Numbered from the stretch's first letter, positions 15,001 through 21,000 are shown. The stretch: 64,000 nt of DNA from an uncultured Verrucomicrobiae bacterium (GCA_963788655.1 CAWBHS010000100.1:31278-95277); one strand, 5' to 3'. Program-made: the numbers.

Positions 15001-18000
15001 GCGGAGGAAATCCGTATTGCCCTGTTCCAATCCGTGCGTGAACTGCTGTTCAACGTCGTTAAACATGCCCGTGTCAAGACGGCCCGGGTGCGCTTGAGCC
15101 AGACTCCCGAAGGAATGATTTGCATTGAGGTGCGCGACCGGGGCGCCGGCTTCGACCCCGCGCAAGTTCGGGCGCGGGAGGGCACTGAAGGGGGCTTCGG
15201 CCTGTTCAGCTTGCGCGAGCGGCTGGAATCCTTCGCCGGCCGGTTGGAAGTGAACAGCGTGCCCGGCCGCGGCAGCCGTTTTACCATCATCGCGCCACTC
15301 TCGACTTCTCTGCCGGACAGCCACGCCACGACGGTCGCCCCGCCCGCTTCCCAAGCCCCAGCGTCTCCTGAGATACGCAAGATCCGCATCCTGGTGGCTG
15401 ACGATCATGCGGTGATCCGCGACGGATTGAAACGGGCCTTTCAGGACGAGCCGGACCTTGACGTGGTCGGCGAAGCCGCCGATGGGATCGAAGCAATCCA
15501 CGAAGCGCGGCGGTTGCGCCCGGACGTGGTGGTGATGGATGTTGCGATGCCGAAAATGGACGGCATCGAGGCCACCCGCCGGCTGATCGAAGAATTCCCG
15601 CAGGTGCGGGTGGTGGGGTTGTCCATGAGCACGGACGAGTCCCACCGCGCCGCCCTGCACGCCGCCGGCGCAGCGCAGTTTCTGGACAAGACCCATTCGG
15701 CCGCCAGCGTGGTGGCGGCCATCCGCAAATGTATCCGCGCGCCGCGCAAACGGAAACGCGCGAAAGCCGTAACGCGCTAGCGCGAGTTTTCTTCTTCGAA
15801 AAACAGCCCGCATGGGCGGCGCCGACTTACACTATAGCGACAGTTCCCGCGAATCGCGGCAGGAGCGCGGCGTTTACGCCGCTTCACCGTCCTATCCCGC
15901 AAGCCGCTGGTTGGCCTTGGGTGCTTGAAGCGGCCTAAAGGCCGCGCGCCTATCGGTGAAAGTGTCGCGGTAGTGTTAATTGCATCCATGCAGGGTCAGC
16001 AACCTCCGGCAAAGCCAGGGGGTTCTCCACGGAGCCAATGACGACCTTCATGACGCCCCAGCCTGCGAAGGGGATTGCTCCGGAGTCGAACCAGTCTTCG
16101 CCTGCGCGGTGACTAAATCCATGACGGTCACAATCCCTTGCAGGTGTTGATCCGCATCGACCACGAGCAACTTGTTCGAGCCGCTGCGAATGAATTGCTT
16201 CATGGTGTCGCCCACGGAGACGTTGGCGCCGATGGTGGGCTGCGCTGCCAGACGCATTTGGTTCAAGGGCGTGTCGAGGCCGGTTTCGGGCCGCTTGAGG
16301 AATTCGTAAAAATCCTCCCGGACGACGGAGCCGACGACGCGCCCGTCACCGTCCACCACGGGATACGAACTGCGCGGATGACCTTGGGCGACCGCCAGCG
16401 CCTCGCGCACGGTGGTTGCCGGAGTGAAGGTGTGCAGGTGGCGCTCCATCAGCGCCGACACCGGTTGAGCGGCCCATTCCGCCGGGAGCTTGCGCCCCAC
16501 GGCTGCCACCATTTCGCGGGACTGAAACTTGTTTGCCGACTTCTGGAAGAACTGTCCCAGTGAGCCGGCGCCGCTGGCAATCTGCCGGAATACGCCGCCC
16601 GGAATGGACACCAGTTTCGACGGCTCGACGGCGCGCGCGTCATAATGCCAGATGCCGTCCTCCATCAGGGCTCGTTCGCCGAAGTGACCGCCCGCAGTAA
16701 CGCGTTGCATGATTTCTCCGTCCTCGCGCAGTTCCACGCAGCCCTGTTTGACGATGTAAAACGAAAAGGCGGGTTCACCGGTGTGGAAGAGCACGTCATC
16801 CTGTTCGAGGAAGATTTCCTTGATCTGTTTTGTGAAGCGCGGACTCAGGTGGTTGATGTCGCGCGGGAAAAACAAATCCAAGGTCCAGTCGAGCATCACC
16901 CGAACCTTGCGGTCGAACCGCGGTAGCTTGGCCAGATAAACACTGCGCCACAGCCACCAAGCCAGAAAGCCGGAGAAGTTGATCCCGAAAATGTTGGCCA
17001 CCGCCACGTGATGGCCGATGGAGGCCATCTCGCCCTGGCCACGAAACGTGAACGGCTGCGGCGGTTGGTCCCGCAGCAGCCGGGTCACGTTGTTGGCCAG
17101 ATGAACGCCCTGCCGCAAGGCGAATTGCGCGGTGCCGGGACAATAGCCGCCGGTGGCCAGGGGGAAGGCCGCGCAATCGCCGGCGGCCCACAACTTGGAC
17201 TGCCCTTTCACTTGGCCCGTTGGTTCGGTGAGAATGCGACCGTGCTCCGCTGCGAAGCCGTTCTGTTCGCAGAGCCGAACGATGAGCGGGTGGGGGGCGT
17301 TGCCGACAGTCGAGATGACCGTGTTGGTTTCGATGGGGGAACCATCCTCCAAATATACCCGATGAGCGGTGACGGCTTTGACCCGCTGGTTCAGCACCAG
17401 TTTGAGCCCGCGTTCCTGCAATTTCCGAGCGCTATATTCGCCCAGCTTGCGGCTCAGTGTCGGCAGCAAATGGTCACCACCGTGAACGAGATACACCTGC
17501 AAATCGTGGGCGCCAATCGACGGATAATAGACGTGAATTGAGCGGAACAAATCCAGGATGTGTCCCGCGGTTTCGACGCCGGAATAGCCGCCGCCCACCA
17601 CGACGAACGTCAGCAGGCGGCGTTTCAATTCGGGTTCCGGTTCGACGTTGGCTTCCTCAATGCGCGCCAAAATGGTTGCCCGCAGAAACATGGCGTCGCC
17701 GACGTTGCGCATGAGAAAGGAGTGCTCGGGCATGCCGGGAATGCGTTTCAAGTCCACCACCGCGCCCAACGCCAAAATGAGTTGGTCGTAACGCACGGTG
17801 AAGTTGCCGGTGAACGGGCCCGCATTCAGGATCAGGCAGCGGCCCGGCCAATCGATGGCTTCGATGTGGCCGCGGAAGACCCGGGTATTCCGGCACAATA
17901 GACGTAGCGGATTGACCACGTGCCGCGGCGAGATTGATGCCCCGGCCACTTCCGGCAACATCGGTTGGAAGACCATATAATTCTCCGCCGAGATCAGGCC

Positions 18001-21000
18001 GATTCGCGGTGGCGAGCTTCGGCCGAATTGGCGGCCCAGGGTTTTCGCACAATAGACGCCCGCAAATCCCCCGCCCAAAATCGCAAGGTCCAGATGGATG
18101 ACGTTGTTCTCGCTCATGAATCGTCGAATAGCCTTTGTGGTGTCGCTGTCGCCCGGCCGGGATCGCGGTTTTCCGCTGCCACGCGTTGCTTCGGTCCCCC
18201 GGCAGGGCGCTCCTTTACTTTACACCGATTCTGTAATTGCGAAATGTATCCGTCTTCGCGACCCGCAGGCCAGCCGTTCCGGGTGTCTCAAATGCACCCA
18301 AGACAGTCGCCGCTTTTGGCACGTTGCAATTGCATTTGAAGGAAAATTGCCAAGCTACGCGGGGGGTAAAGGCCTTTGCGTTCCGAATCCAGGAGCGACG
18401 CTGGGGATTACGACCGAAGGGTGCGCATCCCGTTACGCCACCCGCTTGCGGAACACCGGCTTGGCGTCGGCCAGATTGAGCATCGAAAGGTCGAGCCCTT
18501 CTTCGGGCGCTCGTTTCTTGGCTTTCTTGAGCTGCCGCGCGATCTGTTTACCGGCATCCAAGGCAAAGTATTTGACCGCTCCCACGCTGACGCGCGCGGG
18601 AAAGATGGTGGTCAGCAAGCAATATTCGTCCACGTTCATAATCAGCAGGCTGTTGGCTTCCCCCTGCTGATACATGCTGCTAAAATTCTTCTCACTGACC
18701 AGGTCAGCCAGGCTTTGGGTGGCGGCGAAGGAGCCGGCCGCCAGCGCCGCGAGGGTGGTGGTGTCAAAATCTCCCGTGCCGCATTCCGTGATCAAGAAAC
18801 CGCCCTTGTCAATGATGAGCGCCACGGTTGCCTCACTCTGCTCCAAGAGCTCCTGCAATGCCTCGGTGAAGGCTTGTACGTCTTCCTCGATCAGTTGGGG
18901 AAGCGTGGGCATATCACGCCGCTTTGCGGTTGCCGGCGTTGATGAATTTGTGGAGCAGCAGCCGGGTGATCATGTTCAGCGATTCGAAAACGCCTTCGCA
19001 TTTGTGGGCGCAGGCGGTGAACGAGGGAACCTGCTGCTCGCCGTTGTTCAACAGAAACTCGAGATACTCGACCGGCGCGACGTTGGGGAGGTCGCGCTTG
19101 TTGTACTGCACCACGTACGGGATGTCGGCCAGGTTTTGGTTCAAGGTCTTCATGTTCTCCCGGAGATTCCCGAAGCTCTTCACGTTTTCCTCCATCTTGT
19201 CGTACTGGGAGTCCGCCACGAATACCAGGCCATCGACGCCCCGCAGCACCAATTGGCGCGTGGTGTTGTAAATCACCTGGCCGGGCACGGTGTAAAGCTG
19301 GAATTTGGTTTTGAAGCCCTTGATGGCCATGGCTTCAATGGGCAGGAAATCAAAGAACAGCGTCCGGTCGGAATTGGTGGCCAGCGACACCAGCTTTCCT
19401 TTGCTGCCTTGCGCCGTTTGGACGTGTTCGTGGACCTGCACCAGGTTGGTGGTCTTTCCCCCGAGGGCGGGCCCGTAATACACGATTTTAACCTGAAGTT
19501 CCTTCGTTGCTTGGTTGATAATCGCCATAAGTCAATACAACACTATTTGCCCCGACGGCTGAGTTCCGCGGCAATGAAATCCAGTTTGTCCTGCGGCAAT
19601 TCGTCTTGCGGCCGGCCCAGCGCGGCAAAATAGATGGCGCCGGGGTGATAGATTTGCAGCCGGCCTTTGTCGATCGTCAGCGTCACACTCTTCAATCCGC
19701 CCAATTGAAATTCCTTCGCGTATTGGCTCATCCGACCGATGATTTGCGGCAGGAAGGCCCCGACGGTTTCGGCTTTCACGCCGGGCGGCATGCAATGCGC
19801 CACCAGCAAACCATCTTGCAGGGCGATCAACGCGCCGGCCACTCCGGGCAACTCGACCGTCTTGTTGACAATGTCGTTCGGCGTCCATTTGCGTTTGTTG
19901 GGTTCGCCAAACAACTCCGCCAGGTTCGCCGGACGTTTGCCGCCTTTGCCGGACCGTGCCGACGGTTTAGGGGCGGCGTCCGGCAGGGGGGCATCCACTG
20001 GTTTGGGAGCCGCTTCGTCTGTGGCTGGGAGCGGCGTCGGCGCGGTTGTTTTCGCGGGCTCTGGTGAAACGGTCTGCGGGCTGGTACCCACGCTGAACAG
20101 ATCAGGAATTTCGTTGGGAACCGCCGGTTTGGGACCGGTTGGTTTTCTGGTTTTCTGCCGCAGGAACAACGGCGCCACAATCGGTAACGGCAGCGTTAAT
20201 CGGGCTTCCCCGTAAGGCGAATCGTAGGTTTCTGGCGGCCCGGGATTGAGCCATGAACAAATTTGATGCCACAGATATTCGATCTTGCCCTGGCGCAACG
20301 CCGGTTCAATGGCTGGGAAAGGAATTTCAATGCGCGAGGCCGTGAGAACCGTGTTGGGCGATCTCCTTCTGCACCGGTTCGGGCCAGGCGCCGAGTACCA
20401 GGTTCAAGGGCAGGCTGAGCACTCCTTTGGCTTCAATGATCTTTGGGGTGTGCTCCGTATCCGAACCGGTCGTCGGTGCCGGAACCGCGGGCGCAACGTC
20501 GGGAGGAGGAATACTGGGCACCGCCGGTGCCGCCGCTTGAGGTGGCGGCGGAACGGTTGCTTGGACAACGGGCGGAGGAGCAGCTTGAGTTACCGGCGAT
20601 GGCACGTTCGCGGGAGACGCCGGATTGGCGGTGGAAGGTGCTACCGGTTCCGCCGCGGTCGGAGGAATGACCGAAGCAGCGGGCATTGGCGTTGCCACTT
20701 CTGCCACTACGGGCGGCGGAGGTGGCGCTTCGATCTTGCCGCCTTTCCGGAAGAATTCGGTAACGTGGTTGGAATCGACGGGTTGGCCGGACGACGTGGA
20801 GCGAATGAAATCCAGAAACAAGGGCGTCACGACGTTTAACGGCAAGTCGAGCACCGTGTCGGCATTCGGCGACGGCAACGATTGCGACGGGATTGGCAGA
20901 ATGCGGGAGCGGAGACTGCCCCAGTTATATTGCAGCTTGCCCCGTTTGAGCCCCTCACAGATTTCCGGCGAGGGCAGGGCACACTTGGCAAACGGAACCT

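What a model noticed while it worked through the whole genome (the two positions that open the first line are those of the whole stretch)
16048..18117. Type II NADH dehydrogenase with a built-in cyclic-nucleotide-binding and CBS-pair sensor module
g07313 (689 aa) is a complete NDH-2 extended at the C-terminus by a cNMP-binding domain and a CBS pair; a second, frameshift-split copy is on C106 (2261-4328). NADH entry into the respiratory chain would be gated directly by a cyclic nucleotide and/or adenylate ligand.
Evidence so far: Pfam: Pyr_redox_2 10-337, NDH2_C 361-420, cNMP_binding 436-514 (E 2e-17), CBS 553-607 and 628-672. Search of 60 other Limisphaerales genomes at E<=1e-80: full-length single-frame homolog in G021 (55% id, res. 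5-682), G040 in two pieces, G039 and G048 through res. 520, G032 to 424; 55 of 60 no match. No paper found.
(Added by a program. Inside this text positions count along the whole contig: contig position 31,278 is position 1 of the stretch shown here. "Call 12" and the like, gene names such as g00115 and contig names such as C1 are that model's own, and its searches are not shown. The text may have been shortened before it was handed on; [...] marks where a part breaks off. The agent that wrote the report below was given it as the finding of a first reader that could run no searches.)

Follow-up and report, generated by a model that had tools for sequence, protein, structure and literature searches.

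The report
Sensor-fused type II NADH dehydrogenase
An intact bacterial gene joins a simple respiratory NADH dehydrogenase to two small-molecule sensor domains; the fusion belongs to a large unstudied family, and in this copy the sensor named for cyclic nucleotides lacks the residue needed to bind them.

Summary
A 689-aa ORF on the minus strand (16048-18117) carries Pyr_redox_2, NDH2_C, cNMP_binding and two CBS domains. Its AlphaFold model matches mycobacterial NDH-2. A second copy on contig C106 is split by one extra base.

The architecture is uncommon in the order but not rare overall. More than 100 protein clusters share it. NDH-2 plus a cyclic-nucleotide-binding (CNB) domain runs to thousands of database proteins, in Verrucomicrobiota and Acidobacteriota, with Pseudomonadota as a lead.

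The interpretation needs correcting. The phosphate-binding arginine of the CNB domain is replaced by Trp490, in 106 of 113 close homologs. Deeper branches of the same fused family keep the canonical arginine, as do 6 of the 7 other CNB domains in this genome. Direct cAMP/cGMP gating is therefore unlikely here.

The second CBS domain keeps an invariant G-h-h-T/S-x-x-D ribose motif, so adenosine-nucleotide sensing is the better guess. The catalytic module also differs from plain NDH-2. It has His212 where the NADH-selecting acidic residue sits, and Ser269 in place of the WxxG tryptophan. I found no paper on such a fusion. I rate it a new variant of known kinds, of moderate to high interest.

The parts
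16048..18117 (-). Whole coding sequence of the sensor-fused NDH-2 (689 aa plus TGA stop)
   Evidence: Homologs align from residue ~4-10 to ~672-685.
17107..18090 (-). Two-dinucleotide-binding flavoprotein core, residues 10-337. Motifs: GGGFAG 15-20, GGGYSGVE 175-182, GD 313-314, AQFALR 330-335.
   Evidence: Pfam Pyr_redox_2 9e-40. Foldseek top hit is mycobacterial NDH-2 9mqz_A, E 7.6e-38, TM 0.86 normalised by the target, rmsd 2.2. Motif conservation across 124 sequences.
17482..17484 (-). His212 codon, at the position of the NADH-selecting acidic residue (Ndi1 E272)
   Evidence: alignment. His in 119 of 124 and Gln in 5 of 124 fused proteins. E or D in 5 of 5 plain NDH-2s of the phylum.
17311..17313 (-). 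Ser269 codon, replacing the Trp of the NDH-2 WxxG motif
   Evidence: alignment. S 102, C 12, A 8, T 2 of 124. Trp in 5 of 5 plain NDH-2s. The Trp is 99% conserved in NDH-2s according to PMC5299459 (passage).
16858..17037 (-). NDH2_C membrane-anchoring domain, residues 361-420; model helices at 384-397 and 401-416
   Evidence: Pfam NDH2_C 1e-12. Secondary structure from the model. 40 of 60 columns are at least 90% conserved.
16822..16857 (-). Linker, residues 421-432, between the membrane helices and the CNB barrel
   Evidence: Model pLDDT dips to about 60 here. L424, P426 and R427 are at least 90% conserved.
16525..16821 (-). CNB-fold domain, residues 433-531: beta-barrel 433-506 followed by helices 507-531
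   Evidence: Pfam cNMP_binding 2e-18; model.
16630..16683 (-). Non-canonical phosphate-binding cassette, residues 479-496 (FGERALMEDGIWHYDARA). Glu481 is kept; Trp490 (codon 16648-16650) stands where the Arg should be.
   Evidence: alignment to PKA RI-beta. W 106 of 113, E481 111 of 113, G480 113 of 113.
16093..16461 (-). CBS pair (Bateman module), residues 553-675. CBS1 motif G596..R600..D602; CBS2 motif G661-I-V-T664-V-M-D667.
   Evidence: Pfam CBS in two stretches. Conservation.

Best explanation
This is a real, intact gene for a peripheral-membrane type II NAD(P)H:quinone oxidoreductase carrying its own C-terminal regulatory module, a CNB-fold domain followed by a CBS pair. It belongs to one large, uncharacterised NDH-2 lineage in which every member carries a CNB domain and many also carry the CBS pair.

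In the clade that holds this protein, the CNB pocket has lost the arginine that holds the cyclic phosphate (Trp490). The ribose-contacting Glu481 and the rest of the cassette stay conserved. The CNB domain therefore most likely no longer responds to cAMP or cGMP. It either binds a different, non-cyclic ribose-containing ligand or acts as the transducer between the CBS pair and the enzyme.

The CBS pair keeps the canonical ribose-binding motif and conserved basic residues. It is the likelier ligand sensor, for an adenosine nucleotide and thus for energy charge.

The sensor begins only about 16 residues after the two amphipathic helices that anchor NDH-2 to the membrane and shape quinone access. 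The most likely output is therefore allosteric control of membrane or quinone engagement, or of turnover. That would set how much reducing power enters the quinone pool through the non-pumping route rather than through complex I.

Shown: the architecture, the fold, motif states, family distribution, and a quick tree consistent with Trp being derived. Inferred: ligand identity, direction of regulation, and the coupling mechanism. His212 and Ser269 in the nucleotide-substrate site suggest an altered NADH/NADPH preference; this too is inferred.
For: Architecture and fold:
-; AF2 model with pLDDT 86.6 and pTM 0.69; NDH-2 structures are the top Foldseek hits.
- Catalytic motifs are invariant in 124 of 124 aligned fused proteins: G175, G177, G180, E182, G313, D314, Q331.

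Family-wide conservation of the fusion:
- 113 of the best 120 clusters are 640-760 aa and all 113 are listed with the five domains.
- 11 distant representatives share the architecture.
- all 71 fused sequences form one clade against 5 plain NDH-2s, SH-aLRT 100.

Arg to Trp:
-.
- Canonical Arg lineages are not inside the Trp/Tyr clade (42 rows, support 99); their own branching order is unresolved.
- Within the genome, 6 of 7 other CNB domains are canonical.
- The pocket still looks selected: G476 and G480 are invariant, and F479, E481, L484, L485, A494 and A496 are at least 90% conserved.

Precedents:
- CNB pockets without the arginine bind other ligands: haem in CooA and a chlorophenol compound in CprK (PMC2246266, section 10 read), and nucleosides in trypanosome PKA (PMC10959531, passages).
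- Kannan's 'CBS' CNB family has the cassette GERALLAGGPYSLTARA, with Tyr at the Arg position. This resembles GERALMEDGIWHYDARA here.
- The nearest non-NDH-2 modules are cNMP-CBS-CBS-DUF294 proteins.

CBS motif: G661 113 of 113, T/S664 112 of 113, D667 113 of 113, R600 113 of 113.

The genome has complex I (NuoD at three loci). No plain NDH-2 was found with this query.
Against: - No ligand, activity or regulation has been measured for any member of the family.
- Absence of the arginine lowers but does not exclude cNMP binding. R209K in PKA costs only about ten-fold in affinity (PMC2246266, section 10).
- A CNB-only sister group (L033-L037) has lost the FGE motif yet keeps the Trp. The Trp may therefore be structural rather than ligand-contacting.
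- CBS1 is less regular than CBS2: D602 in 93 of 113, and no fixed T/S at 599.
- The G-h-h-T/S-x-x-D rule is recalled knowledge, not tested here.
- The tree used a quick search, was rooted on only five plain NDH-2s of one phylum, and two Arg-bearing sequences (P0141, P0143) sit inside the Trp/Tyr clade.
- I could not inspect model coordinates, so interdomain contacts are unknown.
- The genome is 86% complete with 5.6% contamination. 'No plain NDH-2' and 'two paralogs in one cell' are both provisional.
- A single residue does not reliably predict NADH versus NADPH use (PMC11670749).
Confidence: 0.55

Rival explanations
1. One reading: the CNB domain binds cAMP or cGMP and directly gates NADH entry into the respiratory chain.
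For: - Pfam cNMP_binding at E 2e-18.
- The FGE glutamate and the beta2-beta3 glycine (G459, invariant) are retained.
- The genome encodes 5 class III cyclase loci and at least 6 canonical CNB domains, so cAMP signalling exists.
- Relatives of the same fusion have fully canonical cassettes, for example FGEQALL..PRTASVRA and FGEMALL..TRNATVR.
- Position 491 is Arg in 32 of 113 close homologs.
Against: - The phosphate-coordinating Arg is Trp490 here, and Trp in 106 of 113 close homologs.
- The alignment to PKA needs no gap between the Glu and this position.
- The residue after it is His here.
- The T/S of R-x-A-T is Asp493.
- The clade-wide cassette resembles Kannan's non-canonical 'CBS' family.
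Confidence: 0.15
2. The C-terminal domains bind no ligand. They serve as a structural or oligomerisation scaffold, for example stabilising the NDH-2 dimer or its membrane docking, with Trp490 filling the old pocket like an intrinsic ligand. The enzyme would then be constitutive.
For: - The Trp is kept even where the FGE motif is lost (L033-L037).
- The sensor domains are less conserved than the catalytic core: mean identity 0.55 for CNB and 0.45 for CBS, against 0.66 and 0.76 for the catalytic parts.
- CNB-homology domains with intrinsic ligands are known in KCNH channels (recalled, not checked here).
Against: - The ribose motif of CBS2 is invariant (G661, D667) across 113 homologs, and R600 is invariant.
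- G476, G480 and E481 of the cassette are kept.
- Retention of two sensor domains across lineages separated by more than 60% sequence divergence is hard to explain by scaffolding alone.
Confidence: 0.15
3. The catalytic module is not a respiratory NADH dehydrogenase in the usual sense. It would be a quinone reductase with another preferred donor (NADPH or both), acting in redox balancing or quinone-pool poising rather than in energy conservation. This rival concerns the output and is compatible with any of the sensor readings.
For: - His212 replaces the acidic residue proposed to exclude NADPH (PMC11670749 passages).
- Ser/Cys269 replaces the WxxG Trp that lies near the adenine of NADH (PMC5299459 passage).
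- Genomes with the fusion usually also hold a plain NDH-2 with E/D and Trp. Examples are G348, G123, G342, G354, G252.
Against: - Every other NDH-2 hallmark is present, and NDH-2 structures are the best fold matches.
- One residue does not predict specificity.
- In G000 itself no plain NDH-2 was found, which would leave these copies as the only NDH-2s.
Confidence: 0.3

Closest known systems
Bacterial and yeast NDH-2 with solved structures (mycobacterial Ndh 9mqy/9mqz, Ndi1 4g6g, S. aureus 5na1, C. thermarum 4nwz)
   Same: Two Rossmann domains with GxGxxG motifs, the catalytic Glu (E182), the GD motif, the AQxAxR quinone motif and C-terminal amphipathic helices. Fold match has TM 0.86 normalised by the target.
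   Different: About 265 extra C-terminal residues (CNB plus CBS pair). His instead of Glu/Asp at the Ndi1-E272 position. Ser instead of the WxxG Trp. Only 23-28% identity.
Ca2+-regulated NDH-2s of plants and fungi with an EF-hand insertion (e.g. Neurospora NDE1; cited in PMC5299459, passage read)
   Same: An NDH-2 whose activity is proposed to be set directly by a small-ligand-binding element built into the polypeptide.
   Different: There the element is an EF-hand inserted inside the first dinucleotide domain and the ligand is Ca2+. Here it is a C-terminal CNB plus CBS module. No EF-hand family appears among the Pfam hits.
CNB-CBS-CBS-DUF294 putative nucleotidyltransferases (Kannan 2007 'CBS' CNB family; Pfam DUF294)
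   Same: The same order, CNB then tandem CBS. A GER-x-LL cassette without the Arg (Tyr in the 2007 consensus; Ala in P0162 and P0261). These are the nearest non-NDH-2 hits to the sensor module (P0162 E 6.9e-15, 29% identity).
   Different: There the module is N-terminal to a DUF294 nucleotidyltransferase. Here it is C-terminal to NDH-2. Function and ligand are unknown in both.
Canonical-cassette NDH-2-CNB fusions (about 542 aa in Acidobacteriota; with CBS in other Verrucomicrobiota, L038-L047)
   Same: The same fused lineage (one clade) and the same His212 and Ser/Cys269 signature.
   Different: They keep FGE...[PT]R[TNG]A[ST], so are candidate true cAMP/cGMP receptors. Most lack the CBS pair. 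They share 35-40% identity with the window protein.
Kannan 2007 'Bact_Pyrredox' family
   Same: [quoted passage not shown]
   Different: It is described as tandem CNB domains with a canonical cassette (GEMGLISGRRRGATVRA). No CBS or NDH2_C is mentioned. I could not check whether it is an NDH-2.

Membership tests
Type II NADH:quinone oxidoreductase (NDH-2) | Two GxGxxG dinucleotide-binding motifs | tested here: met
   G15-G-G-F-A-G20 and G175-G-G-Y-S-G180. G175, G177 and G180 are present in 124 of 124. Criterion taken from PMC5299459 (passage).
Type II NADH:quinone oxidoreductase (NDH-2) | Conserved catalytic Glu (S. aureus E172, Ndi1 E242) after the second GxGxxG | tested here: met
   E182 in GGGYSGVE, 124 of 124.
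Type II NADH:quinone oxidoreductase (NDH-2) | Quinone-site motif AQxAxQ, or its variants AQxAxR and APxAxQ | tested here: met
   A330-Q-F-A-L-R335. Q331 in 124 of 124 and R335 in 120 of 124. The AQxAxR variant is listed in PMC5299459.
Type II NADH:quinone oxidoreductase (NDH-2) | WxxG motif (Trp 99% and Gly 100% conserved) | tested here: not met
   The Gly is present (G272, 124 of 124), but the Trp is Ser269 (S/C/A/T in 124 of 124). Plain NDH-2s of the phylum have Trp.
Type II NADH:quinone oxidoreductase (NDH-2) | C-terminal membrane-interacting domain with two amphipathic helices | tested here: met
   Pfam NDH2_C 1e-12. Model helices at 384-397 and 401-416. G362, G368 and G383 are invariant.
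Type II NADH:quinone oxidoreductase (NDH-2) | Overall fold of solved NDH-2s | tested here: met
   Foldseek hit 9mqz_A: E 7.6e-38, TM 0.86 normalised by the target, rmsd 2.2 over 436 columns.
Type II NADH:quinone oxidoreductase (NDH-2) | NAD(P)H:quinone oxidoreductase activity | not testable with these tools
   Needs an enzyme assay.
Cyclic-nucleotide-binding (ligand-competent CNB) domains | CNB beta-barrel fold | tested here: met
   Pfam cNMP_binding 2e-18. PDB sequence hits to PKG and PKA CNB domains. Model strands at 433-506.
Cyclic-nucleotide-binding (ligand-competent CNB) domains | Cassette Gly-Glu (FGE) contacting the ribose | tested here: met
   F479-G480-E481. G in 113 of 113 and E in 111 of 113.
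Cyclic-nucleotide-binding (ligand-competent CNB) domains | Cassette Arg (PKA Arg209) coordinating the cyclic phosphate | tested here: not met
   Trp490, W in 106 of 113. Canonical motif taken from PMC2246266, section 10.
Cyclic-nucleotide-binding (ligand-competent CNB) domains | Measured cAMP or cGMP binding | not testable with these tools
   Needs a binding assay.
CBS pair (Bateman module) that binds adenosine ligands | Two tandem CBS motifs | tested here: met
   Pfam CBS, two stretches, E 1.2e-15. The model shows two beta-alpha-beta-beta-alpha units in 553-675.
CBS pair (Bateman module) that binds adenosine ligands | Ribose-binding motif G-h-h-T/S-x-x-D/N (the rule is recalled, not from a call) | tested here: met
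   CBS2: G661 113 of 113, T/S664 112 of 113, D667 113 of 113. CBS1 is only partial: G596 112 of 113, D602 93 of 113.
CNB-CBS-DUF294 (COG2905-type) proteins | DUF294 nucleotidyltransferase and DUF294_C domains | tested here: not met
   No DUF294 hit in P0001. The module resembles theirs only in its sensor part.

The most novel reading that the evidence does not exclude
A whole, unstudied lineage of NDH-2 enzymes is switched post-translationally by built-in second-messenger or metabolite sensors. The ancestral form would be a cAMP/cGMP-gated quinone reductase; the canonical cassette is still seen in Acidobacteriota and some Verrucomicrobiota. In the clade that holds this window, the pocket would have been re-tuned (Arg to Trp, ribose-binding Glu kept) to a new non-cyclic ligand and combined with an adenylate-sensing CBS pair. 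The cell would then set the split between non-pumping and pumping NADH (or NADPH) oxidation directly from energy charge, without transcription.
Probability: 0.3. Interest if true: 0.8.

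Novelty: new variant of a known kind. Interest (0 to 1): 0.6.

Why it matters
To my knowledge, bacterial NDH-2 is treated as a simple enzyme without allosteric control, regulated mainly through expression. It is also a drug target in mycobacteria and other pathogens. A large natural family in which NDH-2 carries its own ligand sensors would show that electron entry into the quinone pool can be controlled allosterically.

The family offers a built-in comparison. Canonical-Arg members are candidate cAMP-responsive enzymes. Trp members such as this one have a re-purposed pocket. This makes two questions directly testable: how CNB domains change ligand, and how cells choose between energy-conserving and non-conserving NADH oxidation.

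The His212/Ser269 signature marks a distinct NDH-2 subclass. The large NDH-2 sequence survey I read excluded proteins with fused domains (PMC5299459 methods passage).

Tried and rejected
- Gene neighbourhood. I scanned 94 flanking ORFs, called by my own greedy caller, around 16 fused loci in Pfam. No neighbour was conserved. Scattered cases only: FAD-linked oxidase next to 2 loci, Na+/H+ exchanger with TrkA at 2, ABC1 kinase at 1. In the window the gene follows a 316-bp gap after a Roadblock/GTPase cluster and converges on histidine-kinase genes. I draw no functional link.
- Promoter and terminator scan of 15700-18500. Nothing above the shuffle expectation at the gene's ends.
- Homodimer of the sensor module (complex prediction). 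No verdict: score 0.49 against a control at 0.42.
- RNA evidence. No RNA holder was listed among 22 runs.
- NCBIfam. No model reaches its cut-off; the best is TIGR03169 at 105.6 bits against a cut-off of 310. No curated family name exists.
- Literature. Six searches returned no relevant paper. One further search was rejected for term syntax and not repeated.
- I could not obtain model coordinates, so I rejected the idea of reading interdomain contacts or the Trp490 environment from the model.
- I considered and rejected the gene being an assembly chimera. The fusion recurs in one frame in many independent assemblies, including complete single-contig genomes such as G294 and G348.

Full report
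**Observation**

The stated coordinates hold a single 689-codon ORF on the minus strand (ATG at 18117, TGA at 16048-16050).
- Pyr_redox_2 10-337 (9e-40)
- NDH2_C 361-420 (1e-12)
- cNMP_binding 436-514 (2e-18)
- CBS in two stretches from 553 (1e-15)

No NCBIfam model reaches its cut-off. The best PDB sequence match is mycobacterial NDH-2 (9mqy_A, 2.4e-42, residues 11-414), followed by Ndi1, S. aureus and C. thermarum NDH-2.

An AlphaFold2 model built on 124 aligned homologs is confident (pLDDT 86.6, pTM 0.69). It dips only at the termini and in the 420-430 linker. Its best Foldseek hits are all NDH-2 structures (9mqz_A: E 7.6e-38, TM 0.86 normalised by the target, rmsd 2.2).

The second copy on C106 is real. 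It is split by a single extra base at the codons matching residues 227-228 of the window protein.

**How common the fusion is**

In the 5.8-billion-protein collection, 113 of the best 120 clusters are 640-760 aa long. All 113 carry the five Pfam domains, at 51-70% identity. The named ones are Verrucomicrobiota, including Opitutales, Lentimonas and a Coraliomargarita isolate.

In 400 other genomes of the phylum:
- 15 have matches running to residue 667 or beyond.
- 21 have matches ending between residues 486 and 600.
- Pfam scans of 6 of those 21 still find CBS domains (L038, L039, L040, L041, L046, L047).

In 120 other genomes of the order:
- 4 have a full-length single-frame match.
- 2 have it in two pieces.
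- 7 have matches reaching only into the CNB region.
- The only other genome of the same genus (93% complete) has none.

A search seeded with a distant member (P0157) returned 4866 proteins at E <= 1e-60 among 8000 scored candidates. Nearly all of the 120 listed are about 542 aa, NDH-2 plus CNB without CBS. The named ones are Acidobacteriota. The ESM Atlas adds a Pseudomonadota cluster as a lead.

A quick maximum-likelihood tree of the NDH-2 module used 76 sequences rooted on 5 plain NDH-2s. It puts all 71 fused proteins in one clade (SH-aLRT 100).

**The catalytic module**

These features are invariant in 124 of 124 aligned fused proteins:
- G175, G177 and G180 of the second GxGxxG motif
- the catalytic Glu (E182)
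- the GD motif (G313, D314)
- Q331 of the AQxAxR quinone motif
- the three C-terminal glycines (G362, G368, G383)

G15-G17 of the first GxGxxG motif are present in 122 of 124; the other two rows have a gap there. The criteria come from passages of PMC5299459.

Two hallmarks differ.
- The Trp of WxxG is 99% conserved in NDH-2s and lies near the adenine of NADH (PMC5299459). Here it is Ser269, and S/C/A/T in 124 of 124.
- The acidic residue aligned with Ndi1 E272 is His212, with His in 119 and Gln in 5 of 124. That acidic residue is proposed to exclude NADPH, though it is not a reliable single predictor (PMC11670749 passages).

Five plain NDH-2s from the same phylum have E/D and Trp at these positions. 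Three sensor-less NDH-2s at 40-42% identity have the His but keep the Trp. The fused enzymes are thus a distinct NDH-2 subclass with a remodelled NAD(P)H site.

**The CNB domain**

The gap-free alignment to PKA RI-beta places Trp490 exactly where the cyclic-phosphate-binding arginine belongs. The canonical motif, FGE[LIV]AL[LIMV]X[PV]R[ANQV], is from PMC2246266, section 10.

Among 113 close homologs this position is Trp in 106. G480 is present in 113, E481 in 111, L484 in 113, A494 in 105 and A496 in 108. The pocket is conserved, but without the arginine.

Other branches of the same fused family keep a textbook cassette:
- FGEQALL..PRTASVRA in seven Verrucomicrobiota genomes, which also carry CBS
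- FGEMALL..TRNATVR in the Acidobacteriota-type proteins

On the tree, the Trp/Tyr clade (42 rows, support 99) groups (support 91) with three Arg-bearing sequences. The other Arg lineages lie outside it, with their branching order unresolved. Two sequences inside the clade still have Arg at this position. This is consistent with Arg being ancestral and Trp derived, but the search was quick and the rooting thin.

As an internal control I read the 7 other CNB domains of the genome. Six have R-[ST]-A. The genome also has five class III cyclase loci. cAMP signalling therefore exists in this organism, yet the NDH-2 copies stand outside the canonical receptor set.

**The CBS pair and the origin of the module**

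CBS2 carries G661-I-V-T664-V-M-D667, with G and D invariant and T/S in 112 of 113. CBS1 has G596 (112 of 113), invariant R600 and D602 (93 of 113). From recalled knowledge, G-h-h-T/S-x-x-D is the ribose-binding signature of adenosine-ligand-binding CBS domains.

I searched the sensor module alone (residues 424-689) against 1.84 billion representatives. It found 1433 proteins at E <= 1e-3. Of 34 of the best 150 hits that I scanned in Pfam:
- The closest full-length hits have the same NDH-2 fusion.
- The next are cNMP-CBS-CBS-DUF294 nucleotidyltransferases.

Kannan et al. 2007 (Table 1) already listed a 'CBS' family of CNB domains with the cassette GERALLAGGPYSLTARA, which has Tyr at the arginine position. 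That closely resembles GERALMEDGIWHYDARA here. They also listed a 'Bact_Pyrredox' family of tandem CNB domains on a pyridine-nucleotide oxidoreductase.

**Mechanism (inferred)**

The CNB barrel starts 16 residues after the second amphipathic helix of NDH2_C. L424, P426 and R427 in the linker are at least 90% conserved. I therefore propose two things:
- The CBS pair senses an adenosine nucleotide.
- The CNB domain, no longer a cyclic-nucleotide receptor, either passes this on or binds a different ribose-containing ligand.

The output would be a change in membrane or quinone engagement, or in turnover, of the reductase. Precedents for arginine-less CNB pockets binding other ligands are CooA with haem and CprK with a chlorophenol compound (PMC2246266, section 10), and trypanosome PKA with nucleosides (PMC10959531).

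The genome holds NuoD at three loci. No plain NDH-2 was found with this query (the genome is 86% complete). A regulated non-pumping entry route beside complex I makes physiological sense, but nothing here shows the direction of regulation.

**Rivals**

- True cNMP gating: about 0.15.
- Ligand-free scaffold: about 0.15.
- A change of electron donor, which is independent of the sensor question: about 0.3.

**Side result on the paralog**

The C106 copy also has Trp in its cassette. Its frameshift is one extra base. One 187-nt contig from another public metagenome (run X3, depth 3.5, one other difference) spans the site and lacks one base, which restores the frame. Contigs of two other runs break at the site. 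This is weak evidence that the frameshift is an assembly error or strain-specific. The homolog in G439 is likewise in two adjacent pieces, but split at a different residue.

**Novelty**

Five searches for the fusion found no paper on NDH-2 fused to CNB or CBS domains. A sixth, on DUF294-CBS-CNB proteins, also found nothing relevant. The large NDH-2 survey removed sequences with fused domains (PMC5299459 methods passage). Supplements of these papers were not read.

The components and the idea of a ligand-regulated NDH-2 (the EF-hand forms) are known, and the sequences sit in databases as 'FAD-dependent oxidoreductase'. I therefore rate this a new variant of known kinds, not categorically new. 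Interest is 0.6.

Noticed in passing
window 18433-21871 (-) and 21998-23392 (+): Directly upstream on the same strand lie four genes: a Roadblock/LC7 gene, a small Ras/Arf-like GTPase (MglA-like), a second Roadblock/LC7 protein and a 514-aa proline-rich protein with no Pfam family. A divergent response regulator with DUF4388 follows. It looks like an MglA/MglB-type polarity module.
   Followed up: no
window 9897-12152 (+) and 11920-13155 (+): Two long ORFs overlap by about 230 bases in different frames. Together they read as one sensor kinase: DUF4118-CHASE3-PAS-GAF, then PAS-HisKA-HATPase. This may be a frameshifted single gene or an assembly error.
   Followed up: no
G000 contig C106:2309-4328 (loci L002, L003): The paralog of the fused NDH-2 is split by one extra base. 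A near-identical contig in public run X3 lacks that base and reads in frame. Contigs of runs X1 and X2 break at the site.
   Followed up: partly
L068 (G439:C1:193749-196968): Another genome of the order has its homolog in two adjacent frames (residues 2-199 and 197-674). The split is at a different place from the one in C106.
   Followed up: partly
L064, L065, L066 (G300, G431, G509): These sensor-less NDH-2s share 40-42% identity with the fused type. They already have His at position 212 but keep the WxxG Trp. They may be intermediates between plain and fused NDH-2.
   Followed up: partly
L033-L037 (G168, G387, G177, G024, G270): NDH-2 plus CNB proteins of 531-572 aa (stop-to-stop frames) without CBS. 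Their cassette has lost the FGE motif but keeps the Trp. The Pfam cNMP_binding score is at or below the family cut-off in 2 of the 3 that I scanned.
   Followed up: partly
ESM Atlas hits, ranks 19 and 21: Clusters with CBS plus Pyr_redox_2 (about 548 aa, Actinomycetota) and CBS plus a sulfide:quinone-oxidoreductase-like protein (about 570 aa, Pseudomonadota). These suggest other sensor-fused quinone reductases. Both score below 0.9, so they are leads only.
   Followed up: no
G000 contig C99:61661-61921: This is the one other CNB domain in the genome with a non-canonical cassette (…LAEATLATETGYPADARA). It is FNR/CooA-like rather than cAMP-type.
   Followed up: no
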